Positions 4,834-44,243 of a stretch of DNA of 52,391 nt are shown here, piece after piece (position 1 is the stretch's first letter; each line of letters begins with the position of its first letter). Under the pieces are notes generated by a model that saw only the letters and a list, made by a program, of their open reading frames with translations, did not search any database and was not told where the DNA came from. Where the stretch lies: the IMG/VR virus record IMGVR_UViG_3300045988_104080, positions 1 through 52,391 of that record; one strand, 5' to 3'. A program made the translations under genes and the position numbers. Origin of the DNA: a virus.

Positions 4834-4837
4834 CGGG

Positions 4838-6589: not shown

Positions 6590-6601
6590 GGAGGGAGAAC
6601 T

Positions 6602-16756: not shown

Positions 16757-16778
16757 GTGGCATTACCGTGGCATTACG
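16757..16778. repeat. Tandem GTGGCATTACS repeats (putative integrase arm-type sites, right of attP)
   Basis: gtggcattacc gtggcattacg in direct tandem, overlapping the integrase stop codon. Confidence 0.45.
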
Positions 16779-17826: not shown

Positions 17827-17830
17827 CTGG

Positions 17831-26374: not shown

Positions 26375-29300
26375 ATGAAAATACTTCACACCGGCGACAT
26401 CCACCTGGGAGACCTGGCAGGCCCCACCAAGGACGGCCGGAACCTGCGCCGGGAGGACACCATCCGCTGCATGGAGGAGATTTACTGCCGGGCCTTCCTT
26501 GAGGAGCCCGATCTCACCATAATCGCCGGGGACCTGTTCAACCGGTCCCGCGTGTGGGCGGACACCGCCCTGGAGGATGTAAACGACGCCCTGGAGCGGT
26601 TCATCATCCCGCTGTGCAAGTGCAGCGACGCCGTGGTGCTGCTGTTCGGCACCATGAACCATGACAACCCCAGGGCCTTCGAGCTTATCAAGAGGGCCAC
26701 CAGGGACCTCAAGAACCTGCACATCTACACAGAGCCGAAGGTGGAGGAGATCACCACCAGCAGCGGCGCGGTTCAGATCGTGGCCGTCCCCGGCTTCGAC
26801 AAGGCCCGGCTCCGACTGTTTTGCCCCGGGGTGGACAAGGAGACGGAAAGCCGGAACGCCACCGCGCTTATCAACGACATCGCCCTGGGCCTGTCCACGG
26901 AGCTGGACAAGTCGAAACCGTCCATCCTGGTGGCTCACTATACGGTCAGCGGAAGTGAGGCGGACAACGGCTCCACCTTCCTGGCCGGTCAGGACGTTGT
27001 GGTGCTCCCGGCGACCATCGACGCCATGGGCGTGGACCTGGCCTGCTTCGGCCACATCCACAAGCCGCAGCGCCTCGTGTGCCAGACACCGGCCTATTAC
27101 TGTGGTTCGGTCAATCAGCTCACCTTCAACGACGAGGGCACCGACCACGGCTTCTACATCCACACCATCGACGGCCAGGTCTCCAGTGAGTTTGTGGGGA
27201 CGCCGGAGCGAAAGCACTACACCCTCCGCCTCTCCCCGGACGACGTTGCCGCCTTCATCACCGAAGGCGTGGCGCCGACACCGGCGGGGATCGCCAATGC
27301 CGTTGTCCGGGTCCGTTACTCCTGCACTGCGGAGCAGGACAAGGCCTTCAACCGGGCGGAGCTCCAGAAGCGGCTTATGGAGGCCGGGGCCTTCTATGTT
27401 GCCGAGGTAATGCCGGAGGACGTTGAGGAGCTGGACGCCAAGGACCAGCTTACGGAGCACGACGGCCCGGCCGAGTGCCTGGGCCGCTGGCTGGCTACCA
27501 ACGGCGTGGAGCCGGAGAAGGCAGCTCGTCTCTCCGAGCTGGCCGCGCCGATCATCAAGCAGGCGGACGACGGCCGGGGGGACAGCAAGCACACCGGCGC
27601 ATTTTCCCCGCGCTCCATCGAGGTCAAGAACTACCGCAGCTACACGGCCGCGAGCTTCGACTTCGAGCCGGTTCACATGGCCATGGTCAACGGCCCTAAT
27701 GGCGTGGGCAAGTCCAGCCTGTTCATGGACGCCCTGGCTGATTGCCTGTACGAGCAGACCCGCAAGGAGGACATTGGCGGCTGGGTGAGGGATGGCACCA
27801 AGAGCGGCAGCATTACCTTCACCTTCGGCCTGGGCGGACAGGATTACCGGGTTATCCGCACCAGGACCAAGAGCGGGCGCGGCACCCTGGCGCTCCAGCG
27901 CTGGGACGCAGACGGTCAGGCATGGGCCGACGAGAGCGACACCACCATGAAGCTGACGCAGGCCCGCATTGAGCGGCTGCTCGGTATGGACTGCACCACG
28001 TTCTGCTCCATAGCCCTCATCCGTCAGGATGCCTACGGCCTATTCCTGGAGGCCGGGAGCGATCAGCGCATGGCCGTCCTGTCCGCCCTCCTGGGCCTGG
28101 ACATCTACGGCAGGATGGAAGACCTGGCGAAGGCTGCTGCCACAGAGCAGCGCCGGAAGCTGGCGGCCATCCGGGAGCGCAGCGCCATCCTTGACGAGAC
28201 CATCCGGCAGTTGGATGCGGTCAAGAGCGAAGATGACAGGCTCGCGGAGGAGGTGGAGGCCGTCGAAAGCTCCATCAAGGGCCGGGAGGCAGCCCTTCGG
28301 GCGGCAGAAGCCAACGAAGCCCTCCGGCAGGAGATCACCCGGCAGATCGAGGAGAAGCGGCGACTGGCAAAGGACTACCGCCTCCAGGCGGCAGACAAGG
28401 CAAGCAGATACCTCGACCTCGAAGCGGAGCGCTCGGAGGCTTGCGCTGCGGCTGATGGCCTGGAGGACGCCGTAAAGGCGGCGGAGCGGGTCAAGGTGGC
28501 CCGGGAGATCATGCAGCGTGTGGCGCCGGATGTGGAGCGGGACAAGGAGCTCTTGAAGGAACGGTCCTGGGCAACCAATGAGATATTGTCTTCCGACCAG
28601 AGGGTGAAGCGGCTGGAGAGTGAAAAGAGCCGGAACGAGTTCGTCCTCTCGAAAAGAGAGGCGGTCGAGAAGGCCAAGAAGGAGCTGTCCGAGCTGGCCG
28701 AAAAGAAGGACGCCATCCGGCGCAGGCTGGCAGAGCTGGAGACTGCGAACGCTTCGTACCGCGATGCGAAGGCGGAGAGCGACCGGTATCTCCAGGAGGC
28801 TAAATCAGACATCCGGGTGCGTGAAGCGGAAATCCAGAGGGCGCAGGAAGAAGCGGCTCGCCTGGAGGACAGCGGGTGCCCAGTTCCCGAGACGGCGACC
28901 TGCAAGTTCCTGTCCGCTGCCGTCAAGTGTAAGCAGACACTCCCCGGTATGCTTGATGATCTGGAGGCTGCCAAGGCCGGGCGCCGCAAACGCTACGATG
29001 AACTCAAGGCCGCTGCCGATCAGGCCAAGGCGGCCCTCGACTCCTTTGGCAACCCGCTGGGGGAGCTGTCTGAGTTGGAGGAACGGGAGCGGAACTTGCG
29101 GGAGATTGCATCCAAGGAAGCTGATATTTCGGCTGCTGCTGCGGCTCTCGAAAAAATTGAGGAATCCATCCTGGAGGCAAGGGAGACGACGGACAAGGCC
29201 CTATCTCGAATCAAAGAGATCGACCTTGAGCGGGAACGCCTTACGCAGTCTGTTACCGCCTACCAGGAAGCAGACGGAGACATCCGGTGTTTCTCCGAGT

Positions 29301-30151
29301 TGGCCGACGAGCTGCCTGAATGTCAGGCGGGAGCCGCCAAGGCCGAGGCCCTAGCTCCACAAATCGCCCAGATCAAAGCAGAGACGGCGGAGCTCCGGCG
29401 GAAGTCGGAGGATATGGAGCGAGAGGCGGAGGAGATCGCAGCCAGGGTGCCGGACGCCGGGAGCTCGGTGGACCGTATCCGCGCTGACATTGACCGGCAG
29501 CGGAACGAACTTACCGACCTGGTGACCCGCCGGGGGCAGCTCAAGGCGAAGCTGGAGGACATCGCGGAGGCCGAGACCAAGTCCCGGGAGCTTCGCCGGG
29601 AGGCGGAGGAGACGGGCGTTGTCCTGAACGACTACACCACTCTGGCCCAGGCATTTGGCCTGGATGGCATCCAGTACATGATTGTGCGCGGGGTCGTGCC
29701 GGAGATCATGCGCCGCTCCAACGAAATCCTGGCAGCGATGACCGGCGGCAGAATGGCGGTGGACATCCGCACGGAGCGGGAGCAGAAGTCTACCAAACAA
29801 GTGGTCAATAGCCTGGAGGTCTGGATTAACACCATCACGGGCGGGACGCGCCCCTATCTGTCCCACAGCGGCGGCGAGAAGGTCAAGATTGCTCTGGCCG
29901 TTACTCTGGGTCTGGCGGACGTCAAGGCCCGCCGTGCGGGGGTCCAGCTCGGGATGCTGTTCATCGACGAGCCCCCCTTCCTGGACGCGGATGGCACAGA
30001 GGCCTATGCCGACGCATTGACCGCGATGGCGGCCCGGAACCCGAACATGAGAATACTTGCTATTTCTCACGACCCAACCATGAAGGCCAGGTTCGTGCAG
30101 AACATCGTGGTAACCGGCGGAGACGACGGCAGCACGGTCACGATGGAATAA
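26375..30151 (+). CDS. SbcD-SbcC (Mre11-Rad50-like) fusion nuclease/ATPase
   Basis: 1258 aa. N-terminal calcineurin-like phosphoesterase motifs (GDIHLG, GDLFN, GTMNHD, GHIH). Walker A GPNGVGKSS near aa 450, about 600 aa of coiled coil, signature LSHSGGEKV, Walker B LFIDEPP and ISHD. Confidence 0.85.
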   Translation: MKILHTGDIHLGDLAGPTKDGRNLRREDTIRCMEEIYCRAFLEEPDLTIIAGDLFNRSRVWADTALEDVNDALERFIIPLCKCSDAVVLLFGTMNHDNPRAFELIKRATRDLKNLHIYTEPKVEEITTSSGAVQIVAVPGFDKARLRLFCPGVDKETESRNATALINDIALGLSTELDKSKPSILVAHYTVSGSEADNGSTFLAGQDVVVLPATIDAMGVDLACFGHIHKPQRLVCQTPAYYCGSVNQLTFNDEGTDHGFYIHTIDGQVSSEFVGTPERKHYTLRLSPDDVAAFITEGVAPTPAGIANAVVRVRYSCTAEQDKAFNRAELQKRLMEAGAFYVAEVMPEDVEELDAKDQLTEHDGPAECLGRWLATNGVEPEKAARLSELAAPIIKQADDGRGDSKHTGAFSPRSIEVKNYRSYTAASFDFEPVHMAMVNGPNGVGKSSLFMDALADCLYEQTRKEDIGGWVRDGTKSGSITFTFGLGGQDYRVIRTRTKSGRGTLALQRWDADGQAWADESDTTMKLTQARIERLLGMDCTTFCSIALIRQDAYGLFLEAGSDQRMAVLSALLGLDIYGRMEDLAKAAATEQRRKLAAIRERSAILDETIRQLDAVKSEDDRLAEEVEAVESSIKGREAALRAAEANEALRQEITRQIEEKRRLAKDYRLQAADKASRYLDLEAERSEACAAADGLEDAVKAAERVKVAREIMQRVAPDVERDKELLKERSWATNEILSSDQRVKRLESEKSRNEFVLSKREAVEKAKKELSELAEKKDAIRRRLAELETANASYRDAKAESDRYLQEAKSDIRVREAEIQRAQEEAARLEDSGCPVPETATCKFLSAAVKCKQTLPGMLDDLEAAKAGRRKRYDELKAAADQAKAALDSFGNPLGELSELEERERNLREIASKEADISAAAAALEKIEESILEARETTDKALSRIKEIDLERERLTQSVTAYQEADGDIRCFSELADELPECQAGAAKAEALAPQIAQIKAETAELRRKSEDMEREAEEIAARVPDAGSSVDRIRADIDRQRNELTDLVTRRGQLKAKLEDIAEAETKSRELRREAEETGVVLNDYTTLAQAFGLDGIQYMIVRGVVPEIMRRSNEILAAMTGGRMAVDIRTEREQKSTKQVVNSLEVWINTITGGTRPYLSHSGGEKVKIALAVTLGLADVKARRAGVQLGMLFIDEPPFLDADGTEAYADALTAMAARNPNMRILAISHDPTMKARFVQNIVVTGGDDGSTVTME

Positions 30152-31752: not shown

Positions 31753-32106
31753 TTGGAACAGATCACCTTTGACGAGCTCCTGGCCGGAGCTGCACCGGGC
31801 CCCGGCCCGCCGGAAGGGGTACGGGACCTACCTGGGTTTGAGGAGGCGCGAGAGCGTCTGCGGAGCAAGGGGTTTCCATACGGCTGGGTAGACAAAGTGG
31901 TTACCCCGGACGAGCCTGGGGCCGTATTTGTGAAGAAGGGCATCCCGTTTGAACGTAGTAGCTGCCCGGAATATGAAGGGATTTGGCTATGCGGGGGATT
32001 TAGCTCAGTTCAATGCAACGCCCACAACGGACTATTGCCCGGAATGATGTGGGACACGACCTGCGGGAAGAACCCGGAGCAGTGCCCATTCCGGCAGAGA
32101 AACTAA
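31753..32106 (+). CDS. Hypothetical protein
   Basis: 117 aa, TTG start 8 nt after GGGAGG. Confidence 0.45.
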   Translation: MEQITFDELLAGAAPGPGPPEGVRDLPGFEEARERLRSKGFPYGWVDKVVTPDEPGAVFVKKGIPFERSSCPEYEGIWLCGGFSSVQCNAHNGLLPGMMWDTTCGKNPEQCPFRQRN

Positions 32107-32123
32107 AAATTGGAGGAAGAAAC

Positions 32124-33005
32124 ATGAACGTCAAACTGAACACGCTGCGCCGTGGCGACACCTTCACCCTGGCCGGTATCAACTGGATGGTGCTCAAGGA
32201 GCTTGAGCCTGCCTACTCTGGCGCCGTGCAGAACTACTTCTGCGAGGCCGTGGCCGATCTTTTCCAGGACGCCTTCGACAATGATGGCAACAACAACTGG
32301 AACGGGGCCAGCCTGCGGGAGCGCCTGAATGGCGAGTTCCTGGAGAACCTGGAGAAGGAGCACCCCGGTATCCTGGGGTCCATCGTGCCCACCTACCGCG
32401 ATCTGACCGCTGACGACGGCCTCAACGACTACGGGGCCTGCCTCGATAAGGTGACCATGCTGACGGCGGATGAATACCGGGAGACCCGCGATCTCCACCC
32501 GGCCCCTGAGCACTGGCGCTGGCTCATCACCGCAGATGGGACGCCTGCCAGCTCCGGCACCTCCTACGTGCGCTACGTGAGCTCGGACGGGAGCCTCGGC
32601 TACACCGGCGCGTGCTACGGCACCGGGGGCGTGCGCCCGGCTTTGACCCTGAAATCCGACATCTTGGTATCTGTCGATGACGGGGAAGATCAGCCGGAGG
32701 AGCTGGAGGAGATGTCCCAGGAACAGCGCGAGATGGCGATCTACGAGAAGGCCGTCTCCAAGTGGGGCAAGCGCGCCCAGGCGCTCAAGGCCATCGAGGA
32801 AATGAGCGAGCTGTCGCAGGCGATCTTGAAGCTGGTATTCTTTGAGGACTGCGGCATCGGCGACGAGGAGGCCATCCGGGAGAACATCTCCAAGGAGCGG
32901 GCTGACGTCGAGATCATGCTTAACCAGCTCCACGTCATCTTCGGCGACAACAGCGAGATGGAGTGCAAGTGTTTGGACGACCTGGAAAAACGGCTGGAGG
33001 AATGA
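32124..33005 (+). CDS. DGR target protein 2: lectin-like variable domain fused to a MazG-like all-alpha NTP pyrophosphohydrolase domain
   Basis: 293 aa, RBS GGAGGAAG. The N-terminal domain resembles that of target 1 (GD.F.LAGINWMVL ... WRWL). Contains VR2. C-terminal motifs AIEEMSELSQAILK and ERADVEIMLNQL are MazG/HisE-type. Confidence 0.8.
   Translation: MNVKLNTLRRGDTFTLAGINWMVLKELEPAYSGAVQNYFCEAVADLFQDAFDNDGNNNWNGASLRERLNGEFLENLEKEHPGILGSIVPTYRDLTADDGLNDYGACLDKVTMLTADEYRETRDLHPAPEHWRWLITADGTPASSGTSYVRYVSSDGSLGYTGACYGTGGVRPALTLKSDILVSVDDGEDQPEELEEMSQEQREMAIYEKAVSKWGKRAQALKAIEEMSELSQAILKLVFFEDCGIGDEEAIRENISKERADVEIMLNQLHVIFGDNSEMECKCLDDLEKRLEE
32562..32643 (+). repeat. DGR variable repeat 2 (VR2, remote)
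   Basis: 82 nt aligned without gaps to TR 10648-10729. There are 14 differences, all at TR adenines (14 of 23 A), and none at other bases. Confidence 0.85.
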
Positions 33006-33373: not shown

Positions 33374-34189
33374 ATGAGCCTACACAAAAGCAAAATTGAG
33401 TGGTGTACCCACACCTGGAACCCGGTGACCGGGTGCCTGCATGGCTGCCCCTATTGCTACGCCCGGCGATTCACGGACCGGTTCAAGCCGCACCCCTGTG
33501 AGCGCCCAGGCGTCGAGCCGCTGGAGGTGCTGCCGAAGGGGTCCGGGTGCTACTACCTGGAGAGCCCCGTGCAGCTCTATGACGAGACCGGAGCTCACGT
33601 CCGGCCGACGCCGTACCCCAAGGGCTTCGCCCCTACCTACCACGCTTACGCCATGGACCTCCCGGCCAAGCGGGCTATCCCGTCCCGGGTGTTCGTCTCC
33701 AGCATGGGGGACCTGTTCGGGGATTGGGTGCCGGACATCTGGATTCAGGATGTCTTCGACGCCTGCGACAAGGCCCCGCAGCACACCTACCTGTTCCTCA
33801 CCAAGAACCCGCAGCGCTATTGTGACCTGGCAAACGCCGGGAAGCTTCCAAAACGGGACAACTTCTGGTACGGGACCAGCGTGACCGGGAAGGGCGCTCC
33901 CCTATTTGCAACCAGCGTGGACTTCAATACCTTCTTGAGCATCGAACCGCTCATGGAGAACCTGGAAGCCGGTCTTGGTAGCTTTGGAGGTGTCCGGTGG
34001 GTCATCATCGGGGCCATGACGGGCCCGGGAAGCACGCAGCACCAGCCGAAGCGGGAGTGGGTGGAAAACATCGTTGAGGCCGCAGGCCTCACCCGTGCCG
34101 CAGTCTTTATGAAGGACAGCCTGGCACCCATCTGGGGGCCGGACCTCATCAGAGATCACCCGGAGGGCATGGTATGGCCGGAGAAATGA
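33374..34189 (+). CDS. Phage Gp37/Gp68 family (DUF5131) protein
   Basis: 271 aa. The N-terminal KIEWCTHTWNPVTGCLHGCPYCYA is the family hallmark; here the cysteines have CX3CX2C spacing. Confidence 0.75.
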   Translation: MSLHKSKIEWCTHTWNPVTGCLHGCPYCYARRFTDRFKPHPCERPGVEPLEVLPKGSGCYYLESPVQLYDETGAHVRPTPYPKGFAPTYHAYAMDLPAKRAIPSRVFVSSMGDLFGDWVPDIWIQDVFDACDKAPQHTYLFLTKNPQRYCDLANAGKLPKRDNFWYGTSVTGKGAPLFATSVDFNTFLSIEPLMENLEAGLGSFGGVRWVIIGAMTGPGSTQHQPKREWVENIVEAAGLTRAAVFMKDSLAPIWGPDLIRDHPEGMVWPEK

Positions 34190-38156: not shown

Positions 38157-38185
38157 GTGACAAGGATTCCGAAAAGTGGTATAAT
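38157..38185 (+). promoter_or_regulatory. Late-operon promoter
   Basis: GTGACA, 17-nt spacer, TATAAT with an upstream TGg (extended -10). Confidence 0.7.
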
Positions 38186-38221: not shown

Positions 38222-38707
38222 ATGAAAAAGATTTGCCTTTTAGACCTCAACTACACCCTGGTTGGGAACCAGGCGGAGACCCGGATGCTCCGGCCCTTCG
38301 CCCGCCGCATGGAGGCGGAGGAGTACCGGCTCGACCTGATCGACGCCATCAAGGATGACTATGTCATCATTGTCACAGCGAGACCGGACTACCAGATGCG
38401 GCAGACGATGGAGAACATCCGCCGAAAGACTGGATGGCAGCCGGACGAGTGGTACTTCAACGACATCAACGCAGAGCCCCCCGTCTTCAAGGAGAGCGCC
38501 CTTCGCCGCTTCATCTTCCCGAAGCACGGCCTCCAGATGGGGCCGGAGGGGACCTACTATTACGCCGTTGAGAGCAACCCGAAGACCAGGACGATGTATA
38601 ACCGGTTCGGAATCAAGGGGCAGCCCTACGACGTCTTCATGCGGAGCGTGAGGCCGGAGGCGGCCGTGGCTCCGCAGCCTACCTACTGCCAGGTAAGTCT
38701 ATTCTGA
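38222..38707 (+). CDS. HAD-like hydrolase-fold protein
   Basis: 161 aa, RBS AAAGGAG. Motif-I-like LLDLNYTLV and motif-II-like IIVTARP; the second Asp of DxD is Asn. Confidence 0.4.
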   Translation: MKKICLLDLNYTLVGNQAETRMLRPFARRMEAEEYRLDLIDAIKDDYVIIVTARPDYQMRQTMENIRRKTGWQPDEWYFNDINAEPPVFKESALRRFIFPKHGLQMGPEGTYYYAVESNPKTRTMYNRFGIKGQPYDVFMRSVRPEAAVAPQPTYCQVSLF

Positions 38708-38778: not shown

Positions 38779-39387
38779 TTGAGAACCCAGACCATCAAAC
38801 TGGCCGACATCAAGCCGGCCGAATACAACCCACGGGTGACTTTGACTGAGAAAGATCACGAATACAAGGCCCTGTCGGCCAGCATCGAGGACAACGGCCT
38901 GGTCCTTCCTCTGGTGGTAAATCTCCGGGACAACGTCCTCATCAGCGGACACCAGCGCCTCAACGTGCTGCTGGCATCTGGTGAGACGGAGACTGAGGCG
39001 GTCGTGGTTGACATGGACCCGGCACAGGCGAAGGCTCTGTGCATCGCTATGAACAAGCTCGACGGCGAATGGGACAACGGCAGTCTTGCAGACCTCCTTC
39101 AGGAGCTCCAGGACGAAAGTGCGGACCTCCTGGGCACCGGCTTCACCCGCCAGGAGATCGACGAGCTGTTGGGGGACATCGGGGGCGCGGACGATGATGA
39201 CGACCCGCCTACCACTGACAAGAAGAAGGACGACAAGGAGGGCATCAAGTGCATCGTCGGAGACTATACCTTCCGCCTGACCGAAGATGAGTTCGCAGAC
39301 CTCATGGTGGACGTGCGTGAAGCGGTGGGCTTTACGCAGGAGCTCATCTGTGCGGAGCTGAAAAGGAGGCTGTTCGATGCGGTATAA
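38779..39387 (+). CDS. ParB N-terminal-domain (ParB/Srx-like) protein, paralogue 1
   Basis: 202 aa, TTG start after AAAGGAGAG. ..IKPAEYNPR.., ..ISGHQRLNV.., an acidic linker, and a C-terminal module IVGDYTFRL...ELKRRL. Confidence 0.75.
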   Translation: MRTQTIKLADIKPAEYNPRVTLTEKDHEYKALSASIEDNGLVLPLVVNLRDNVLISGHQRLNVLLASGETETEAVVVDMDPAQAKALCIAMNKLDGEWDNGSLADLLQELQDESADLLGTGFTRQEIDELLGDIGGADDDDDPPTTDKKKDDKEGIKCIVGDYTFRLTEDEFADLMVDVREAVGFTQELICAELKRRLFDAV

Positions 39388-40051
39388 GACCATCTATAAA
39401 ACCTTGCCGTTGGCGGAGATCGTCGAGTGCCCGTATAACCCCCGTGTTTCCATCGAGAGAGACACGCCGGAGTATGAGGCTCTGCGCCGCAGCCTGGAGC
39501 AGCATGAGGTGGTGGAGCCCCTGGTGGTGAACATCCACAACATGAGGTGCGTGGGTGGAAATCAGCGCCTCGCGGTCATGCGGGACATGGGGATCACCGA
39601 GGCCCTGTGCTCCATCATCGACCAGCCCGATGAGGTCCAGGAGAAGAAGCTCTGCCTGGCCCTGAACCGGATAGACGGCCGGTGGGACACCGACAAGCTG
39701 GGCGATCTGCTGCGGGACGACGGCGTCCTGGAGTGGGAGACCGGCTTCGACGAGGCGGAGGTCCGTCTATACCGGCAGCTTGATGATGCCCAGGAGCCGG
39801 ATGCCGACGACGACACCGAAGACCTGGACGACCTGGAGGACGAAGACCAGGAGGAGCCCGAGCCGGAAGACGAAGAAGATGCGCCCGAGGAGGGCACGGT
39901 CAATACCACGGTCATCCGCATCGGCCACTATTCCTTCAAGGTTGAGTATTCTGCCTACAAGCGTCTGGTGGACACCATCATGGATGACGGCGTTTTCTCT
40001 GGACCGGACATCGAGGCGGAGATCAAGAGGAGGCTGTTGGAAAATGATTGA
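39377..40051 (+). CDS. ParB N-terminal-domain protein, paralogue 2
   Basis: 224 aa. ..VECPYNPR.., ..VGGNQRLAV.., about 40 aa of Asp/Glu-rich linker, and a C-terminal module IGHYSFKV...EIKRRL paralogous to the previous gene. Confidence 0.75.
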   Translation: MRYKTIYKTLPLAEIVECPYNPRVSIERDTPEYEALRRSLEQHEVVEPLVVNIHNMRCVGGNQRLAVMRDMGITEALCSIIDQPDEVQEKKLCLALNRIDGRWDTDKLGDLLRDDGVLEWETGFDEAEVRLYRQLDDAQEPDADDDTEDLDDLEDEDQEEPEPEDEEDAPEEGTVNTTVIRIGHYSFKVEYSAYKRLVDTIMDDGVFSGPDIEAEIKRRLLEND

Positions 40052-41591
40052 GCTCGTACCCATTGAATCCGTTCACGCCTCGGAGTACAACCCCCGGCGG
40101 AACGACGAAAAGCGCCTGGCCTTGACGGAGCTGTCCCTCCGAAAGCTGGGCTTCCTGCTGCCGATCTACGCAGACCGCAGCGGGGAAATCTTGAGCGGGC
40201 ATCAGCGGCACCTTGTCGCCTCCCGCATAGGCTTCACCCAGATTCCGGTCGAGTATGTCAGCGGAAAGGACCTGGGAGAGCGGAAGGCTGTGAACGTCCT
40301 TTTCAACCGGGCGACCAACGACCTCCAGAAGCAAGACACCTGCGACATCATCCGGCGCCGTCTCTATGAGATGGACGTGGAAAGCATGGTGGACGGCCTG
40401 CCGGACATCGACCCCGGCACAGACGCCGCCTTCCCGTGCGTCTTCGGCCTGGTGCGCCGGGACACTGTGCAGCTGGCTAAGGCCAATCACCGGAAGTTCG
40501 ACACTCACACCCGCCAGCTCGCCAAGAGCCTGGAGCGCCGCATCGGGTCGGCCATGCCTATCGTGATCGGCGCAAGCGAGAACGTCATCAACGGAATTGG
40601 ACGCCTCCAGGTGGCAGCGGAGGCCAAGAGACCCGTGGTGCGCTGCGTAGTTGTTTCCAAGGAGCAGGAGGACTTCGCAACAGCGATGCTCAACCTTCTG
40701 TCTATGGACTTCGACATCGCTTCCTATGCGGACGATCTGCGGTATAACTCCTTCATGCGGGAGCGGAACACCCGCGAGACGGACGCAGAGGGAAACGCAG
40801 CTCTGGGCGACGGATTCTTCAAGGGTGTGTTTCCGAAGAACCGGGGCCGGGACTTCTGCAAGCTGGAGGGCGCAGCCCTGGAGGCGTGGCGCCGTCACTA
40901 TGGCTCCAGCGTTGTGGACTTTGGAGCGGGGAAGCTGAACAACACTCGCACGCTGCGGAAGGCCGGTATTCATGTGGCGGCCTTTGAGCCCTACTTTGTG
41001 ACCGTAGGCGAGAATATCCACAAGCCCAAGAGCGTGGAGATCGCTGAGAAGTTCCTTGACGACGTGGAAGCCGGGACGCCGTTCACGTCGGTCTTCATCT
41101 CTAGCGTGTTCAATAGCGTCCCGTTCATGGAAGACCGGAAGCAGATCGCGGTGATCGCCGCAGCTCTGTGTGCTCCGGGCGGCCGGACGGTCTGCTGGTG
41201 CCAGAGCAACAAAGCGCCGCAGTTCGTGAACACTAAGAAGAAGTTTCTGGCTGCCGAGAAGACCTTGACCTTCGATCTGGACTACGAGCCCAACACCATC
41301 CTGGGCGACATCGGGAACCACCCGAAAGCCCAGAAGGGCCACACCGAGGAGGAGATGCGAGAGATATTCGCCCCGTGCTTCCGAAAGGTGGATCGCCTGG
41401 AGATGATTCAAAAATTCTGGTACATGGAGGTGTCGGAGCCAATCGTAGACCCGGCGGCCCTGGGCGCGGCTCTGGACTTTGAGTTTGAGCTTCCGTACCC
41501 GGACGGGACCCGCATGGGGCTGTCTGACCGGGCCCGCAAGGCGTTTGAGCATCGCCTCGGCATCTCCATCCCGAGGAAGGAGAGCGTATGA
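40044..41591 (+). CDS. ParB-like (x2) / class I SAM-dependent methyltransferase-fold fusion protein
   Basis: 515 aa. N-terminal ..ASEYNPR..LSGHQRHLV... A second ParB-like segment ..PIVIGASENVINGIGRLQVA... A Rossmann SAM motif VVDFGAGKL, then AAFEP and VFISSVFNSVP (aa ~285-400). No (D/N/S)PP(Y/F/W) motif. Confidence 0.7.
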   Translation: MIELVPIESVHASEYNPRRNDEKRLALTELSLRKLGFLLPIYADRSGEILSGHQRHLVASRIGFTQIPVEYVSGKDLGERKAVNVLFNRATNDLQKQDTCDIIRRRLYEMDVESMVDGLPDIDPGTDAAFPCVFGLVRRDTVQLAKANHRKFDTHTRQLAKSLERRIGSAMPIVIGASENVINGIGRLQVAAEAKRPVVRCVVVSKEQEDFATAMLNLLSMDFDIASYADDLRYNSFMRERNTRETDAEGNAALGDGFFKGVFPKNRGRDFCKLEGAALEAWRRHYGSSVVDFGAGKLNNTRTLRKAGIHVAAFEPYFVTVGENIHKPKSVEIAEKFLDDVEAGTPFTSVFISSVFNSVPFMEDRKQIAVIAAALCAPGGRTVCWCQSNKAPQFVNTKKKFLAAEKTLTFDLDYEPNTILGDIGNHPKAQKGHTEEEMREIFAPCFRKVDRLEMIQKFWYMEVSEPIVDPAALGAALDFEFELPYPDGTRMGLSDRARKAFEHRLGISIPRKESV

Positions 41592-42283
41592 GAGATAACA
41601 CAAACCCGACCGGGGCATGGGAGTTCAACGGCGAGGTTGCTGCCTGCTTTGCGAATATGCTGGAGCGCAGCATCCCGGACTACCGCTCCATGCGAGCCCT
41701 GGTCTACAAAGCTGGAGAGCGGTTCGTTAAGCCTGACACACTGATTGTTGACATCGGGTGTTCGACCGGCCTGGCGGTGGAACCGTTCGTCACCAGGCAC
41801 AAGAAGGAAAACGCCTTCCTGCTGATCGACAATGCGGAAGCCATGGCGCAGGCCTGCCGGGACCGCTTTGGCTCCGAGCCATCCGTCACGGTGAAAGAAG
41901 GAAACCTGTGGGAATATTTACCGTTTGAAAGAGACGCGAGCCTGGTCCTGTCCGTTCTGTCGATGCAGTTCATGCCCACGTCATATCGGCGCTTCATGCT
42001 GCGCCATATTTGCGACAGCATGATTGAGGGCGGCGCTCTGATCTACGTTGAGAAGGTTGTGGCCGGAAGCCTGGACGATCTGATGGTGGACCTCTACTAC
42101 CAGATGAAACGGGAAAACGGGTACACGGATGAGCAGATCATGGCGAAGCGCCGGAGCCTGGAAAATGTCCTCTCCCCGCTGGAACCTGCGTGGAATGAGA
42201 GCTTGCTCAAGGAGGCAGGCTTCCGCAAGGTCGAAATGTTCTGGCGCTGCCTTAACTTCTGCGGGTGGATTGCCGTGAAATAA
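41588..42283 (+). CDS. cmoA: CmoA-family carboxy-S-adenosylmethionine synthase homologue
   Basis: 231 aa, colinear with E. coli CmoA as I recall it: [22 protein letters not shown] / [30 protein letters not shown] / [16 protein letters not shown] / [17 protein letters not shown] / [30 protein letters not shown] / [32 protein letters not shown] / CFNFGSLVALK. Confidence 0.8.
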   Translation: [231 protein letters not shown]

Positions 42284-42307: not shown

Positions 42308-42823
42308 ATGCCGAAACGCAGCGATACGAAGCCGTGGGAGCGCCAGGATAAGGAAGGCGAAAAGCCGTTCGAGGCCTTCGTTATATACCGGGATATGGGC
42401 GAGAAGCGCACACTTCAAGCCGTTGCGGACAGGTTGCAGAAAAGTTACACTCTCATACGCCGCTGGAAAGACACCTGGGGTTGGGAAGATCGCGTCCGGG
42501 CTTATGACAACGATTTGCAGCAGAAGGCCCACACGGAGGCGGTCAAGAAGGCCCGCAAGATGGCGGACCGGCATATCGGCATAGCTCTGAAATTGCAGGC
42601 AAAGGCCATGGAGGCGCTGGAGAAGATGAACGCCGAGGACATCGACCCGAAGAACCTGGTGGCCTTCATCAGGGAAGCCACCAAGCTTGAGCGCGAGAAT
42701 CGGCAGGACGTTGTTCAGATGACCAACCCGGACCGCGATGAAGATGGTGGAACCACGAGTCTTGCTGACGTCATTTCCGAGGCATGGGAGAGGAGGCAGA
42801 AGCAGAATGAAAATGACGGCTGA
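42308..42823 (+). CDS. terS: Terminase small subunit
   Basis: 171 aa, RBS AAGGAGAGGAG. HTH-like N-terminus (..FVIYRDMGEKRTLQAVADRLQKSYTLIRRW..), directly upstream of and overlapping terL. Confidence 0.7.
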   Translation: MPKRSDTKPWERQDKEGEKPFEAFVIYRDMGEKRTLQAVADRLQKSYTLIRRWKDTWGWEDRVRAYDNDLQQKAHTEAVKKARKMADRHIGIALKLQAKAMEALEKMNAEDIDPKNLVAFIREATKLERENRQDVVQMTNPDRDEDGGTTSLADVISEAWERRQKQNENDG

Positions 42824-44243
42824 TGCAATCCTCTACTACGCCGACAACCCGGTGGACTTCGTGGAGGATGTCATCCGAGCCAAGCCAGACGAGAACCAGA
42901 GGGCCATCTTGAATAGTGTGGCCCGGTACCCCATGACATCCGTGAGAAGTGGACACGGCATAGGCAAGAGCGCGGTGGAGAGCTGGCTTGCAATCTGGTT
43001 CCTGACTACCCGGCCCTATCCCAAAATACCCTGTACGGCACCTACGCAGCACCAGCTATGGGACATCCTGTGGGCCGAGATTGCGAAGTGGTTGAGAAAC
43101 AACCCAGCCCTGGCAAATGACCTGATCTGGACGAAAGAGAAGGTCTACATGAAAGGACACCCGGAGGAATGGTTTGCCGTAGGACGAACGGCCAGCAAGC
43201 CGGACGCCCTCCAGGGCTTCCATGCTGACCATGTGCTCTATATCATCGACGAGGCCTCTGGCGTCAAAGATGAGATATTCGAGCCTATCCTCGGTGCGCT
43301 GTCCACCGAAGGCTCAAAGCTGCTGATGTGTGGAAACCCCACCAAGATCACCGGCTTTTTCTATGACAGCCACCACAAGAACCGCGAGCAGTTCAACGCC
43401 ATGCACATTGACGGCCGCAGCTCCAGCCGAGTGGACCAGGAGTTCGTCGATACCATCATTGATATGTTCGGAGAGGACAGCGACGTGTTTCGCGTCCGTG
43501 TGGCCGGGGAGTTCCCCAGGGCACTTCCTGACAGCTTTATACCGATGGAATGGGCGGAGAGGGCCAGCGAGGCGGAGGCCCCGCAGATCGAGCGCGTGTC
43601 CCGCGTGGACATCGGCATTGACGTTGCCCGCTATGGTGACGATAGCTCCGTCATCTCCCCTGTCCTGGACCGAAGGCTCCAGGAGCAGCCGGAGATTTAC
43701 CACCACAACGACACCATGCAGATTACCGGTATGGCCGTTGTCTGTATCAAGAAGCACGCCAGAGAACACCCCTGGGCGGAAATCCATGTGAAGATCGACT
43801 GTGACGGCCTGGGTGTCGGCGTGTTCGACCGCCTCATGGAGCTCAAGGGGCAGATCATGGAGGAGATCGAGGTAGACCGGGAGAGGATCTATGAAGGCAG
43901 CGACGAGGCACCGCCTCCGCTGTCCCTGGAGATCGTCGAGTGCCACTTCGGAGGAGAGGGCGGCACCGTGAACGACGCCGACCCGGTCGAGTACCAGACC
44001 AGCACCGGCCTGATGTGGGGCACCATCCGGGAGGCCCTGCGGACCCAGAGCCTCAAGTTGTGGCCTGACGACAAGCAGATTTCGCAGCTTTCCAACCGCC
44101 GCTACATCGTCAACAGCGCGGGCAAGATCGAGCTGGAGAAGAAGGAGGCCATGAAAAAACGTGGCCTGTCCTCACCGGATATGGGCGACGCGCTGGCACT
44201 GGCGCTCTACGACCCGTTGGTGAGCGACTGGAGCATCAACTAA
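42807..44243 (+). CDS. terL: Terminase large subunit
   Basis: 478 aa. Walker A-like SGHGIGKS, Walker B LYIIDEASG, and a nuclease-domain acidic motif ..GIDVARYGDDSSV... Confidence 0.9.
   Translation: MKMTADAILYYADNPVDFVEDVIRAKPDENQRAILNSVARYPMTSVRSGHGIGKSAVESWLAIWFLTTRPYPKIPCTAPTQHQLWDILWAEIAKWLRNNPALANDLIWTKEKVYMKGHPEEWFAVGRTASKPDALQGFHADHVLYIIDEASGVKDEIFEPILGALSTEGSKLLMCGNPTKITGFFYDSHHKNREQFNAMHIDGRSSSRVDQEFVDTIIDMFGEDSDVFRVRVAGEFPRALPDSFIPMEWAERASEAEAPQIERVSRVDIGIDVARYGDDSSVISPVLDRRLQEQPEIYHHNDTMQITGMAVVCIKKHAREHPWAEIHVKIDCDGLGVGVFDRLMELKGQIMEEIEVDRERIYEGSDEAPPPLSLEIVECHFGGEGGTVNDADPVEYQTSTGLMWGTIREALRTQSLKLWPDDKQISQLSNRRYIVNSAGKIELEKKEAMKKRGLSSPDMGDALALALYDPLVSDWSIN

What the first reader, a model, noticed from the sequence alone, without database searches (positions are those of the whole stretch)
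41588..42283. Full-length CmoA (carboxy-SAM synthase) homologue in a phage of an apparently Gram-positive-type host
Seen: the 231-aa protein is colinear with E. coli CmoA as I recall it, from the N-terminal W.F...VA..F..M..RS.P.Y box to the C-terminal C.NF......A.K. The segment AKRRSLENV aligns with E. coli QKR(199)SMLENV, which contains the Arg reported as essential for Cx-SAM formation.

Established: cmo5U and the CmoA/CmoB pathway are typical of Gram-negative bacteria, whereas Bacillus-type organisms make mo5U with TrmR. The other genes of this phage (DnaD-like, RecU-like, SleB-like, LL-H holin) point to a Firmicutes host.

Inference: the enzyme is unlikely to be simply complementing a host tRNA pathway, and no recognisable CmoB is adjacent. 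That makes a new acceptor plausible.
Basis: partly seen in the sequence, partly recalled or inferred. Interest (0 to 1): 0.75.

Follow-up and report, generated by a model that had tools for sequence, protein, structure and literature searches.

The report
Phage CmoA paired with ParB-methyltransferase
The gene is a real carboxy-SAM synthase (CmoA) homologue, but its constant partner is an uncharacterised ParB-fused methyltransferase-like protein rather than the cytosine C5 enzyme of the published phage pathway, which points to a second, untested way for phages to carboxymethylate what is probably their DNA.

Summary
ORF 41588-42283 encodes a 231-aa, full-length CmoA homologue that keeps Arg199 (R188) and the cofactor contacts.

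The idea of a "new acceptor" is only partly new. A Dec 2025 paper (PMC12783734) showed that phage CmoA supplies carboxy-SAM (Cx-SAM) to CmoX, a C5-cytosine methyltransferase homologue that makes 5-carboxymethylcytosine in DNA.

This window has no CmoX and no CmoY. Instead, cmoA is the last gene of an overlapping operon:
- a Pnkp-like HAD protein ("p161")
- two small ParB-N proteins
- a 515-aa ParB-N/class I methyltransferase fusion ("ParBMT", phrog_5475, function unknown)
- cmoA, followed by terS

Comparative evidence links ParBMT to CmoA:
- Of 99 non-redundant ParBMT loci spanning many bacterial phyla, 98 carry CmoA and 93 carry the HAD protein.
- Three kinds of cultured phage carry the pair: Gordonia Evaa, Pseudomonas Samunavirus and Aeromonas HJ05.
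- Two gut phages with about 93% identical backbones and 96-97% identical CmoA carry either a CmoX/CmoY cassette or the ParBMT cassette.
- A CmoA-less sister clade of ParB-methyltransferases lacks three family-invariant basic residues (R239, R365, K428).

Best reading: ParBMT is a second, unrelated family of Cx-SAM-dependent transferase, probably acting on phage DNA. The acceptor atom is unknown.

The parts
38157..38185 (+). Sigma-70-type promoter-like site (GTGACA, 17-nt spacer, TATAAT, with extended -10 TG) ahead of the module
   Evidence: 11 of 12 consensus matches, 37 nt upstream of the p161 start. This is a consensus match only, not evidence of function.
38222..38707 (+). p161: 161-aa capless HAD-fold protein resembling the 3'-phosphatase domain of polynucleotide kinase/phosphatase. 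Its motif I is D8-L-N10-Y-T, with Asn in place of the usual second Asp. It is the third conserved module component.
   Evidence: phrog_32036 (function unknown), E = 1e-87. No Pfam or NCBIfam hit. AF2 model pLDDT 85.9. Best Foldseek matches are T4 Pnkp 2IA5 (E = 2e-5) and Pnkp1 4XRP. Invariant residues are listed. Present in 93 of 99 ParBMT loci.
38779..39387 (+). ParB1: 202-aa stand-alone ParB N-terminal-domain protein with an acidic C-terminal part (TTG start as listed by the ORF tool; start not verified)
   Evidence: phrog_620, E = 1e-45. Pfam ParB_N, E = 3.5e-5. Conserved upstream of ParBMT in related loci.
39377..40051 (+). ParB2: 224-aa paralogous ParB N-terminal-domain protein with a strongly acidic Asp/Glu-rich stretch. 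Overlaps ParB1 by 11 nt.
   Evidence: phrog_620, E = 1e-33. Translation. About 41% identical to ParB1 over the N-terminal domain.
40044..41591 (+). ParBMT: 515-aa fusion. Residues 1-95 are a ParB-N domain (NPR and GHQR motifs), residues about 150-228 a second ParB-like domain, and residues about 270-465 a class I Rossmann methyltransferase domain with a conserved C-terminal DFEF-LPYPDG tail. Proposed Cx-SAM-dependent transferase.
   Evidence: The ATG at 40044 overlaps the ParB2 stop by 8 nt and a GAGGAGG ribosome-binding site lies upstream. phrog_5475 (function unknown), E = 6e-179. Weak Pfam hits to ParB_N and Methyltransf_23. AF2 model pLDDT 87.5, pTM 0.80. Foldseek matches small-molecule class I methyltransferases and Noc/ParB. 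Invariant residues are listed. Sister-clade comparison.
41588..42283 (+). cmoA: 231-aa carboxy-SAM synthase homologue. Its ATG overlaps the ParBMT stop codon (ATGA).
42308..42823 (+). Context only: terminase small subunit, followed by the large subunit (42738-44243) and portal. The module sits at the head of the packaging/late genes.
   Evidence: The same position next to the terminase is seen in Gordonia phage Evaa and in locus L223.

Best explanation
**Proposed mechanism**
1. The 231-aa protein is a functional carboxy-SAM synthase. It converts SAM plus host prephenate into Cx-SAM.
2. It is the cofactor-supply gene of a five-gene late-operon module: p161, ParB1, ParB2, ParBMT, CmoA.
3. ParBMT, the ParB-N/class I methyltransferase fusion encoded immediately upstream and translationally coupled to cmoA, consumes the Cx-SAM.
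4. ParBMT is proposed to transfer the carboxymethyl group to the phage's own DNA after replication and around the time of packaging. Its ParB-N domains, and the two stand-alone ParB-N paralogues, would load or activate the enzyme on double-stranded DNA.
5. The Pnkp-like HAD protein p161 is proposed to act on the same polynucleotide, either processing the modification further or playing an accessory role.
6. The likely biological role is protection of virion DNA from host restriction or other DNA-targeting defences.

**Shown here**
- CmoA homology and retention of the cofactor-binding residues.
- Operon structure with overlapping start and stop codons.
- Absence of CmoX, CmoY and CmoB from the window.
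- Near-obligate co-occurrence of ParBMT, CmoA and p161, and co-divergence of their sequences.
- A natural cassette swap between a CmoX/CmoY cassette and the ParBMT cassette.
- Family-specific basic residues in ParBMT.

**Inferred**
- That ParBMT uses Cx-SAM.
- That the acceptor is DNA.
- Which atom is modified.
- What p161 does.
For: **1. CmoA identity**
- TIGR00740 match E = 2.7e-45 over the full length.
- E. coli CmoA 4GEK match E = 3e-33.
- Arg199 and most cofactor contacts are retained. Of the two substitutions, N106 is also found in SpCmoA, which was shown to make Cx-SAM, and SpCmoA has Ser-Leu at the other position.

**2. Coupling within the operon**
- Start/stop overlaps at 39377/39387, 40044/40051 and 41588/41591, with one promoter-like site at 38157.

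**3. No alternative Cx-SAM user in the window**
- tblastn of SpCmoX, SpCmoY and the SPbeta-like phage's C5-methyltransferase gives only noise (best E = 0.25 and 0.067).
- No C5-methyltransferase motif IV occurs in any real ORF.
- Pfam scans of the larger predicted genes (those of about 90 aa or more in the early region, ten of the larger structural-region ORFs, and the module genes) find no other methyltransferase or amide ligase.
- The window encodes no tRNA.

**4. Co-occurrence**
- Of 99 non-redundant ParBMT loci with at least 2.5 kb of flank on both sides, 98 encode CmoA, always on the same strand and usually within about 1.2 kb. 93 encode p161.
- Hosts include Oscillospiraceae, Lachnospiraceae, Verrucomicrobia, Alphaproteobacteria, Cyanobacteria, Bacteroidota, Planctomycetes, Chloroflexi, Vibrio/Photobacterium and Desulfovibrionaceae.
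- Cultured phages Gordonia Evaa, Pseudomonas PA_L9/SM1/PaMx31 and Aeromonas HJ05 carry the pair.
- Gene order varies: p161 lies upstream in some lineages and between ParBMT and CmoA in others, yet the set is kept.
- Identities to the window proteins co-vary: Spearman 0.83 for ParBMT versus CmoA and 0.92 for ParBMT versus p161.

**5. Mutual exclusivity and cassette swap**
- CmoA-anchored loci carry either full-length ParBMT plus p161, or CmoX (with or without CmoY) plus a small ParB. None carries both.
- L223 and L247 share 92-93% nucleotide identity in their flanks and in cmoA, and their CmoA proteins are 96-97% identical. Between the flanks they carry non-homologous cassettes.
- L223 has ParB, CmoX (with SPPC and GRMV motifs), CmoY and extra genes. 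L247 has p161, ParB1, ParB2 and ParBMT.

**6. Cofactor-switch signature**
- A sister clade of about 450-aa ParB-Methyltransf_23 fusions (20-26% identical to ParBMT) has no CmoA in the loci retrieved.
- It shares motif I, E315, the SVxNSV motif and the DFEF-LP tail.
- It lacks the residues that are invariant in the CmoA-linked family: R239 (Gln in the sisters), R365 (Glu or His), K428 (Tyr, Phe or Thr), and P360/F361/D364.
- This parallels the Asn-to-Arg350 change in CmoX and Lys91/Arg315 in CmoB.

**7. DNA as the acceptor**
- ParB-N fusions are typical of phage DNA methyltransferases (bioRxiv 10.1101/2025.10.10.680097).
- A ParB-like protein activates a phage DNA T-dioxygenase on double-stranded DNA (PMC13229309).
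- ParBc proteins accompany CmoX.
- p161 resembles polynucleotide 3'-phosphatase domains.
Against: - There is no biochemical evidence. Use of Cx-SAM by ParBMT is inferred only from genomic context.
- The methyltransferase domain resembles small-molecule and RNA class I methyltransferases (10-15% identity). It does not resemble any known DNA methyltransferase class, and it lacks a canonical (D/N/S)PP(Y/F) or PCQ motif.
- The CmoA score is below the NCBIfam equivalog cut-off.
- Some CmoA partners in distant lineages (Pseudomonas, Aeromonas, Vibrio) lack an Arg at the Arg199 column.
- One locus with full flanks, L120, has ParBMT and p161 but no CmoA.
- The sister-clade comparison rests on four sequences aligned at low identity, and their flanks are only 1.4-4.8 kb long.
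- p161 lacks the general acid/base Asp of HAD phosphatases, so its chemistry is unclear.
- The loci are related by descent, so the co-occurrence counts are not independent events.
Confidence: 0.6

Rival explanations
1. ParBMT does use Cx-SAM, but the acceptor is not DNA. It could be RNA (for example host tRNA or rRNA), a protein (for example the ParB paralogues or virion proteins), or a nucleotide bound by the ParB-N NTP pocket.
For: - The methyltransferase domain's closest folds are small-molecule and RNA methyltransferases, including METTL6.
- p161 resembles the Pnkp phosphatase domains of RNA-repair enzymes.
- ParB-N folds bind CTP, ATP or GTP.
Against: - The cassette swaps with a bona fide DNA-modifying CmoX/CmoY cassette in near-identical phages.
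- ParB-N fusions and partners are characteristic of DNA-modifying enzymes.
- The window encodes no tRNA.
- The module sits directly upstream of the terminase genes in unrelated phages.
Confidence: 0.2
2. CmoA acts mainly as a SAM-consuming anti-defence enzyme, lowering SAM for host BREX or restriction systems or for SAM-AMP signalling. ParBMT would then be an ordinary SAM-dependent DNA methyltransferase that merely travels with it.
For: - The authors of PMC12783734 raise SAM depletion by phage CmoA as a possibility.
- ParB-Methyltransf_23 fusions without CmoA exist.
Against: - Co-occurrence in 98 of 99 loci, translational coupling, and exclusivity with CmoX are not expected for two independent functions.
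- Depleting SAM would starve a SAM-dependent neighbour.
- The CmoA-linked clade has invariant extra basic residues that the CmoA-less clade lacks.
Confidence: 0.1
3. The phage CmoA complements or boosts a host tRNA cmo5U pathway, supplying Cx-SAM to a host CmoB. This is the classical role of CmoA.
For: CmoA homology, and database names such as 'tRNA (cmo5U34)-methyltransferase'.
Against: - No CmoB is present in the window.
- The likely hosts are Clostridia, where cmo5U is not expected (established knowledge; not tested here).
- The same module occurs in phages of Actinobacteria, Verrucomicrobia and Cyanobacteria.
- The published phage role of CmoA is DNA modification.
Confidence: 0.04
4. The CmoA-like enzyme of this lineage makes a SAM derivative other than Cx-SAM, or is itself a methyltransferase.
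For: - Its score is below the equivalog cut-off.
- It has substitutions at the D117 and N132 positions.
Against: - Arg199, Glu164 and the other contacts are kept.
- Asn at the D117 position also occurs in SpCmoA, which makes Cx-SAM at 2.33 per second, and SpCmoA has Ser-Leu at the N132 position.
- A CmoA 96-97% identical to that of a ParBMT-type phage serves a CmoX/CmoY cassette.
Confidence: 0.05

Closest known systems
Phage CmoA-CmoX-CmoY pathway for 5-carboxymethylcytosine and 5-glycylcarboxymethylcytosine in DNA (Synechococcus phage S-B43; Yang et al., Nat Commun 2025, PMC12783734)
   Same: - A phage-encoded CmoA homologue is present.
- ParB-N (ParBc) domain proteins are in the neighbourhood.
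- The logic is the same: a dedicated Cx-SAM supply next to a methyltransferase-fold enzyme.
- A CmoX/CmoY cassette and the ParBMT cassette replace each other upstream of a nearly identical cmoA in two related gut phages.
   Different: - The window has no C5-cytosine methyltransferase homologue: no SPPC motif, no Arg350 context, and no PF00145 hit in the genes scanned.
- It has no Asn-synthetase-like ligase.
- The partner is a class I Rossmann methyltransferase domain of a different family, fused to two ParB-like domains, plus a Pnkp-like HAD protein.
- The window CmoA is only about 28-30% identical to SpCmoA.
- The paper states that no non-C5 (N6-adenine or N4-cytosine) carboxymethyltransferase candidates associated with CmoA were found.
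Bacterial CmoA/CmoB tRNA cmo5U34 pathway (E. coli; PMC3663124, PMC4482062)
   Same: - CmoA fold, Arg199 and the cofactor contacts.
- The expected chemistry of Cx-SAM synthesis from SAM and prephenate.
- Expected recognition of the Cx-SAM carboxylate by basic residues in the transferase (Lys91/Arg315 in CmoB; candidates R239/R365/K428 here).
   Different: - No CmoB is present, and ParBMT has no HMM similarity to CmoB.
- Phage late-operon context.
- ParB-N fusion.
- The probable acceptor is not tRNA.
ParB-N (ParB-CTPase fold) fusions to methyltransferases in phages, including ParB-Methyltransf_23 (bioRxiv 10.1101/2025.10.10.680097), and ParB-like activators of phage DNA T-dioxygenases (PNAS 2026, PMC13229309)
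   Same: - The architecture is the same: a ParB-N domain followed by a Methyltransf_23-like class I methyltransferase domain.
- Enrichment in prophages.
- Stand-alone ParB-N paralogues sit next to a DNA-modifying enzyme.
   Different: - Neither paper, as far as read here, links these fusions to CmoA or Cx-SAM. A term search of the bioRxiv survey finds no 'CmoA' or 'carboxy'; for the PNAS paper only the abstract and outline were read.
- The window protein belongs to a distinct subfamily of about 515 aa (phrog_5475) that is almost always linked to CmoA.
- It differs from the CmoA-less sister subfamily of about 450 aa at invariant basic positions.
T4 polynucleotide kinase/3'-phosphatase (Pnkp) phosphatase domain, HAD superfamily (comparison for p161)
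   Same: Capless HAD fold. Motif II Thr, motif III Lys and an acidic motif IV are conserved. The best structural matches are 2IA5 and 4XRP.
   Different: - Motif I is DxNxT rather than DxDxT. The general acid/base Asp is replaced by an invariant Asn.
- There is no kinase domain.
- No sequence-level hit to any Pfam or NCBIfam family.

Membership tests
CmoA, carboxy-SAM synthase (NCBIfam TIGR00740) | Full-length match to the family profile above the curated equivalog cut-off | tested here: inconclusive
   Profile positions 11-239 of 239 are matched, E = 2.7e-45, 154.9 bits. This is the best hit by far but lies below the cut-off of 193.3. The other ParBMT-linked phage CmoA-likes that were scanned (Gordonia Evaa gp5, Pseudomonas PA_L9 gp99, Aeromonas HJ05 gp3) also score below it, at 92-121 bits. 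The validated SpCmoA was not scanned.
CmoA, carboxy-SAM synthase (NCBIfam TIGR00740) | Arg199, which salt-bridges the Cx-SAM carboxylate (PMC3663124) | tested here: met
   R188 in AKRRSLENV aligns with R199 in QKRSMLENV. Arg occupies this column in 170 of 203 ParBMT-linked CmoAs.
CmoA, carboxy-SAM synthase (NCBIfam TIGR00740) | SAM-moiety contacts: Tyr39, Asp62, Gly64, Ser66, Asp89/Asn90, Asp117, Asn132, Phe137, Glu164 | tested here: met
   All are conserved except D117 (N106) and N132 (S122/V123). SpCmoA, the experimentally active phage enzyme, also has Asn at the D117 position and has Ser-Leu at the N132 position.
CmoA, carboxy-SAM synthase (NCBIfam TIGR00740) | Catalysis: SAM plus prephenate gives Cx-SAM | not testable with these tools
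   Requires an enzyme assay.
Phage CmoA-CmoX(-CmoY) DNA 5cxmC system (PMC12783734) | CmoX: a C5-cytosine methyltransferase homologue with the SPPC motif and an Arg350 equivalent | tested here: not met
   tblastn of SpCmoX against the window gives best E = 0.25. No SPPC or PCQ motif occurs in a real ORF. No PF00145 hit in the genes scanned.
Phage CmoA-CmoX(-CmoY) DNA 5cxmC system (PMC12783734) | CmoY: an Asn-synthetase-like ATP-dependent amide ligase (frequent but not universal) | tested here: not met
   tblastn of SpCmoY and of the Erwinia phage Y3 Asn synthase gives best E = 0.067. No PF00733 hit in the genes scanned.
Phage CmoA-CmoX(-CmoY) DNA 5cxmC system (PMC12783734) | Phage-encoded CmoA with ParBc-domain proteins nearby | tested here: met
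CmoB, Cx-SAM-dependent tRNA carboxymethyltransferase | Sequence membership in the CmoB family (Methyltransf_9 / TIGR00452), with Lys91, Tyr200 and Arg315 | tested here: not met
   The only NCBIfam hit of ParBMT is Noc/ParB, and Pfam gives only a weak Methyltransf_23 hit. A profile search against PDB finds no methyltransferase hit.
ParB-N / Methyltransf_23 fusion proteins of phages (architecture noted in bioRxiv 10.1101/2025.10.10.680097) | An N-terminal ParB-N domain plus a C-terminal class I methyltransferase domain of the Methyltransf_23 type | tested here: met
   - Pfam ParB_N (E = 6e-4) and Methyltransf_23 (E = 7.6e-4) are both below the gathering score.
- The folds are confirmed by the AF2 model and Foldseek.
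- The Pseudomonas homologue (PA_L9 gp98) scores higher on both Pfam models: ParB_N reaches the gathering score (27.6 against 26.3 bits), while Methyltransf_23 (24.5 against 27) does not.
- The sister clade is alignable over the whole length.
Exocyclic-amino DNA methyltransferases (N6-adenine / N4-cytosine; PF01555, PF02384 and relatives) | Motif IV, (D/N/S)-P-P-(Y/F/W) | tested here: not met
   The loop after strand beta-4 is the invariant S-S-V-x-N357-S-V-P360-F361. It is NSVPF, not NPPF, and there is no PF01555 hit.
HAD phosphatases / Pnkp 3'-phosphatase domain (for p161) | Motif I, DxDx(T/V), with a nucleophile Asp and a general acid/base Asp at +2 | tested here: not met
   Motif I is the invariant D8-L-N10-Y-T12. 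The fold nevertheless matches Pnkp.

The most novel reading that the evidence does not exclude
ParBMT (phrog_5475) is the founding member of a second, evolutionarily unrelated family of natural Cx-SAM-dependent DNA carboxymethyltransferases. It would install a carboxymethyl group at a position other than cytosine C5, for example on an exocyclic amine or another nucleophile of a flipped-out base, giving a DNA modification not yet described in nature. ParB-N paralogues would act as loaders or activators, and the DxN-type Pnkp-like HAD protein would serve as a new kind of processing enzyme, playing the part that CmoY plays in CmoX systems.
Probability: 0.38. Interest if true: 0.88.

Novelty: new variant of a known kind. 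Interest (0 to 1): 0.72.

Why it matters
- **Known background.** Carboxy-SAM was long known only as the cofactor for tRNA cmo5U. In late 2025 it was shown to feed one phage DNA modification (5cxmC) through a repurposed C5-methyltransferase.
- **What this locus adds.** If the ParB-methyltransferase fusion also uses Cx-SAM, phages have recruited the cofactor at least twice, through unrelated transferases. The authors of the 2025 paper looked for non-C5 carboxymethyltransferases linked to CmoA and reported finding none.
- **How widespread it is.** The module occurs in prophages of human-gut Clostridia and Akkermansia and in several other phyla.
- **How testable it is.** It is present in cultured phages of Gordonia, Pseudomonas aeruginosa and Aeromonas, so nucleoside mass spectrometry and long-read sequencing could test the hypothesis at once.
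- **Possible payoffs.**
  - A new natural DNA base.
  - A new orthogonal DNA-labelling enzyme with a carboxylate handle.
  - A role for the puzzling ParB-N domains and stand-alone ParB-N proteins that accompany phage DNA-modifying enzymes.
  - An explanation for restriction or defence evasion by these phages, some of which (Pseudomonas Samunavirus) infect a clinically important pathogen.

Tried and rejected
- **CmoX or CmoY hidden elsewhere in the window: rejected.** A six-frame motif scan, Pfam scans of the larger predicted genes and tblastn with S-B43 CmoX/CmoY, the SPbeta-like phage's C5-methyltransferase and the Erwinia phage Y3 Asn synthase all found nothing.
- **ParBMT as a CmoB relative or a CmoA paralogue: rejected.** There is no NCBIfam hit to CmoB. 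hhalign of ParBMT against CmoA gives probability 1.3%. A sequence-profile search of PDB finds only the ParB-N part.
- **Apparent ParBMT-CmoA fusion proteins as 'Rosetta stone' evidence: rejected.** P0002, P0097, P0119, P0182, P0187, P0210, P0217 and P0235 turned out to be chimeras: seven deletion chimeras that each join two truncated module genes, and one ParB2-ParBMT read-through, P0002.
- **Locating the carboxylate-binding residue in 3D: not possible.** I relied on conservation and the sister-clade contrast instead.
- **Searching for relatives of the methyltransferase domain outside the fusion.** Only 314 representatives were found among 1.84 billion proteins. Nearly all are 500-540 aa with the domain in the C-terminal half, so the domain is essentially confined to this architecture.
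- **Kim et al. 2013 (PMC3895326)** on the prephenate-binding residues of CmoA is not held in the library, so those residues were not checked.

Full report
**1. The observation**

ORF 41588-42283 (+) encodes 231 aa.
- It matches NCBIfam TIGR00740, carboxy-SAM synthase CmoA, over profile positions 11-239 of 239. E = 2.7e-45 and 154.9 bits, which is below the curated equivalog cut-off of 193.3.
- It aligns end to end with E. coli CmoA (4GEK, E = 3e-33) and H. influenzae YecO (1IM8).
- It falls in phrog_4752 (E = 2e-76).

I mapped the cofactor contacts listed for E. coli CmoA (PMC3663124) through the alignment.
- Conserved: Tyr39, Asp62, Gly64, Ser66, Ala70, Asp89/Asn90, Phe137, Glu164 and Arg199 (R188 in the window protein).
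- Changed: Asp117 is Asn106, and Asn132 is Ser122/Val123.
- Asn at the Asp117 position also occurs in SpCmoA of Synechococcus phage S-B43, which was shown to make Cx-SAM faster than the E. coli enzyme. At the Asn132 position SpCmoA has Ser-Leu, and most other phage CmoAs aligned also have Ser-x.

**2. What is already known**

A Nature Communications paper of December 2025 (PMC12783734) showed three things.
- Phage CmoA supplies Cx-SAM to CmoX, a C5-cytosine methyltransferase homologue with an SPPC motif and Arg350. CmoX makes 5-carboxymethylcytosine in phage DNA.
- CmoY, an Asn-synthetase-like ligase, then adds glycine.
- The authors found 4257 CmoA genes on CmoX-bearing phage contigs and many ParBc-domain proteins of unknown role.

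[quoted passage not shown] A phage CmoA is thus no longer surprising in itself. In a Staphylococcus SPbeta-like phage it sits next to a C5-methyltransferase gene.

**3. What is in this window**

The window is a 60% GC, roughly 52-kb temperate phage genome. Almost all genes are on the + strand, and the integrase is at 16774-17967 on the - strand.

It contains no CmoX and no CmoY.
- No C5-methyltransferase motif IV occurs in any real ORF.
- The Pfam scans of the larger predicted genes show no PF00145 or PF00733 hit.
- tblastn with S-B43 CmoX/CmoY, the SPbeta-like phage's C5-methyltransferase and the Erwinia phage Y3 Asn synthase gives only noise, with best E = 0.25 and 0.067.
- There is no CmoB and no tRNA gene.

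Instead, cmoA is the last gene of a tightly packed operon that follows a good promoter-like site at 38157-38185.

| Gene | Coordinates | Description |
|---|---|---|
| p161 | 38222-38707 | Pnkp-like HAD protein |
| ParB1 | 38779-39387 | stand-alone ParB-N protein |
| ParB2 | 39377-40051 | stand-alone ParB-N protein |
| ParBMT | 40044-41591 | 515-aa ParB-N/methyltransferase fusion |
| cmoA | 41588-42283 | carboxy-SAM synthase homologue |

The coding regions overlap by 11, 8 and 4 nt, the last being an ATGA overlap. terS, terL and portal follow.

**4. The partner proteins**

ParBMT:
- It belongs to phrog_5475, function unknown (E = 6e-179).
- Pfam sees only weak ParB_N and Methyltransf_23 signals.
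- A confident AF2 model (pLDDT 87.5, pTM 0.80) shows an N-terminal ParB-N domain, a second ParB-like domain, and a C-terminal class I Rossmann methyltransferase domain.
- The nearest structures of the methyltransferase domain are small-molecule and RNA methyltransferases (XhnM1, PH0226, GSMT, METTL6) at 10-15% identity.
- A PDB sequence-profile search finds nothing for the methyltransferase part.
- The domain family is small: 314 representatives among 1.84 billion proteins. Nearly all are 500-540 aa with the domain in the C-terminal half, so the domain is practically confined to this fusion.

p161:
- It has no family assignment in Pfam or NCBIfam.
- Its AF2 model (pLDDT 85.9) best matches the phosphatase domain of T4 polynucleotide kinase/phosphatase and of Pnkp1.
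- Motif I is the invariant D-L-N-Y-T, so the usual second Asp is Asn.

**5. Comparative genomics**

*Related viral contigs.* In 15 and then 75 IMG/VR loci found with CmoA or ParBMT as the query, the set p161, ParB, ParBMT and CmoA is kept down to 39-47% ParBMT identity. Gene order changes: p161 moves from upstream of the ParB genes to between ParBMT and CmoA.

*Bacterial genomes.* A scan of one genome per bacterial species found 80 prophage loci.
- The closest, at 79-85% identity, are in Flavonifractor/Pseudoflavonifractor and Oscillospiraceae.
- More distant ones are in Lachnospiraceae, Verrucomicrobia including Akkermansia, Alphaproteobacteria, Cyanobacteria, Bacteroidota, Planctomycetes, Chloroflexi, Vibrio/Photobacterium and Desulfovibrionaceae.

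*Co-occurrence counts.* I used HMMs of the three proteins on six-frame ORFs.
- Of 99 non-redundant ParBMT loci with at least 2.5 kb on both sides, 98 encode CmoA, 93 encode p161 and 92 encode both. The exception for CmoA is L120.
- Identities to the window proteins co-vary: Spearman 0.83 for ParBMT versus CmoA and 0.92 for ParBMT versus p161. These points are not phylogenetically independent.

*Cultured phages.*
- Gordonia phage Evaa carries gp1 ParB, gp2 'ParB-N-terminal-like domain methyltransferase', gp4 'phosphatase', gp5 a CmoA-like protein, and gp6 terminase.
- Pseudomonas Samunavirus phages (PA_L9, SM1, PaMx31 and others) and Aeromonas phage HJ05 carry adjacent ParB, ParBMT and CmoA-like genes.
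- For all three kinds of phage, the best NCBIfam hit of the CmoA-like protein is TIGR00740.

**6. Two exclusive contexts and a natural cassette swap**

In a CmoA-anchored sample of viral contigs, CmoA is accompanied either by full-length ParBMT plus p161, or by a strong SpCmoX homologue (with or without CmoY) plus a small ParB protein. It is never accompanied by both.

CmoA sequences of the two contexts are interleaved. The CmoA of CmoX-type loci L223, L225, L232 and L234 is 96-97% identical to the CmoA of ParBMT-type locus L247.

L223 and L247 are 92-93% identical at the nucleotide level in the left flank, in cmoA and in 5 kb of downstream terminase and structural genes. The segment between is non-homologous.
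- L223 carries ParB, CmoX (PF00145, with SPPC and GRMV motifs, the latter being the Arg350 context), a 2-hydroxyacid-dehydrogenase-like gene, Asn synthase/CmoY, and an LPG_synthase_C-like gene.
- L247 carries p161, ParB1, ParB2 and ParBMT.

This is the strongest evidence here that the ParBMT cassette is a functional alternative to the CmoX/CmoY cassette and draws on the same cofactor.

**7. A cofactor-switch signature**

The most distant hits of the ParBMT profile (L081-L086, 20-26% identity) are ParB_N-Methyltransf_23 fusions of about 450 aa. They have no CmoA in the loci retrieved.

| Feature | CmoA-linked family (27 representatives below 65% identity) | CmoA-less sister clade (4 sequences) |
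|---|---|---|
| Motif I (DFGxG) | present | present |
| Glu315 | present | present |
| S-V-x-N-S-V loop after strand beta-4 | present | present |
| Gln430 | present | present |
| C-terminal DFEF-LP motif | present | present |
| Position 239 | Arg, invariant | Gln |
| Position 365 | Arg, invariant | Glu or His |
| Position 428 | Lys, invariant | Tyr, Phe or Thr |
| Positions 360, 361, 364 | Pro, Phe, Asp, invariant | different residues |

A gain of invariant basic residues around the cofactor site is what distinguishes CmoX from C5-methyltransferases (Asn to Arg350) and what defines CmoB (Lys91, Arg315). The sister sample is small and the alignment identity is low, so this is supportive evidence, not proof.

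**8. Mechanism proposed**

1. CmoA makes Cx-SAM from SAM and host prephenate.
2. ParBMT uses the Cx-SAM to carboxymethyl-transfer onto phage DNA late in infection.
3. The ParB-N domains, fused and stand-alone, load or activate the enzyme on double-stranded DNA. A ParB-like activator does this for a phage DNA T-dioxygenase (PMC13229309), and ParB-methyltransferase fusions are known to be enriched in phages (bioRxiv 10.1101/2025.10.10.680097).
4. p161, a polynucleotide-phosphatase-like HAD protein with altered catalytic residues, acts on the same polymer in an unknown way. It may be the counterpart of CmoY.

The acceptor atom cannot be inferred. ParBMT has neither the PCQ/ENV motifs of C5 enzymes nor a canonical (D/N/S)PP(Y/F) motif. 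Its invariant post-beta-4 loop is S-S-V-x-N-S-V-P-F.

I give about 0.85 that the protein is a Cx-SAM synthase, about 0.7 that ParBMT consumes Cx-SAM, and about 0.55-0.6 that DNA is the acceptor.

**9. Rival explanations**

- A non-DNA acceptor (RNA, protein or nucleotide), about 0.2.
- SAM depletion combined with an ordinary methyltransferase, about 0.1.
- Support of host tRNA cmo5U, about 0.04.
- A different SAM derivative, about 0.05.

Evidence for and against each is given in the rival-explanations section.

**10. Novelty**

- The CmoA gene is a new member of a known kind.
- The module (CmoA with a ParB-fused, non-C5 methyltransferase and a Pnkp-like HAD protein) is a new variant of the known Cx-SAM-dependent phage modification system.
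- It is not described in the papers held here. The 2025 paper explicitly reports not finding non-C5 candidates.
- Its presence in cultured phages makes it directly testable.

Noticed in passing
window 10623-10729 (TR), 10896-12119 (RT), 12597-12703 (VR, inside gene 11791-13650): A diversity-generating retroelement in the tail-fibre region. A 107-nt template repeat lies upstream of a reverse transcriptase (PF00078, E = 1e-15). An 87%-identical variable repeat lies inside a DUF6273/Ig-like gene. All 14 mismatches fall at adenines of the template repeat. A second DUF6273 gene at 32013-33005 was not checked for a variable repeat.
   Followed up: partly
L223 (IMGVR_UViG_3300045988_120825) 1778-6705 versus L247 (IMGVR_UViG_3300045988_131483) 2706-6699: Two gut phages with 92-93% identical backbones carry either a CmoX/CmoY cassette or the ParBMT cassette upstream of the same cmoA. 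The CmoX cassette also holds an LPG_synthase_C-like gene (PF09924, related to aminoacyl-tRNA-dependent transferases) and a 2-hydroxyacid-dehydrogenase-like gene. These may extend the 5cxmC hypermodification.
   Followed up: partly
Proteins P0097, P0119, P0182, P0187, P0210, P0217, P0235; locus L205: Metagenomic 'fusion' proteins are deletion chimeras joining truncated module genes, for example ParBMT 1-409 with CmoA 73-231, ParB2 1-163 with CmoA 24-231, and p161 1-58 with CmoA 30-231. This suggests recurrent decay of the module by internal deletion, or assembly artefacts.
   Followed up: partly
window 39377-40051 (ParB2, residues about 135-175) and 38779-39387 (ParB1, residues about 140-165): Both stand-alone ParB-N paralogues carry very acidic Asp/Glu-rich stretches, for example DDAQEPDADDDTEDLDDLEDEDQEEPEPEDEEDAPEEG. 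The role is unknown; they could be DNA-mimic or linker regions.
   Followed up: no
L091 (S-B43 CmoA) and alignment A3; column counts: The experimentally active SpCmoA has Glu, not Arg, at the E. coli Arg199 column, with an Arg four residues later. The neighbouring Lys198 is essentially invariant (201 of 203 ParBMT-linked sequences, the other two gapped at that column, and 12 of 12 CmoX-linked). Arg199 may therefore not be a universal CmoA determinant, or the helix register differs.
   Followed up: partly
L094 (Staphylococcus phage SPbeta-like KT429160) 5699-6697: The C5-methyltransferase next to cmoA ('hhaIM') has SPC rather than SPPC, and Gly-Gly-Val where SpCmoX has Gly-Arg350-Met. It would fail the published CmoX criteria despite its adjacency to CmoA.
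   Followed up: no
L120 (MAG Puniceicoccales Verruco_01, LVBV01000016.1): This is the only locus with full flanks that has ParBMT and p161 but no detectable CmoA within 5 kb downstream, even at E = 10. The region downstream of p161 looks rearranged.
   Followed up: partly
window 26375-30151: A 1258-aa fusion of an N-terminal calcineurin-like phosphoesterase (Metallophos) with an SMC_N/AAA_23 ATPase, that is an SbcD-SbcC-like nuclease in one polypeptide, in the replication/recombination region.
   Followed up: no
window 33374-34189: A DUF5131 (phage Gp37/Gp68 family) protein, E = 3e-38, function unknown, in the early region.
   Followed up: no
L081-L087 (IMG/VR): A sister clade of ParB_N-Methyltransf_23 fusions of about 450 aa without an adjacent CmoA. 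It shares the SVxNSV and DFEF-LP motifs with ParBMT. It is uncharacterised too and would make a useful SAM-dependent comparator.
   Followed up: partly
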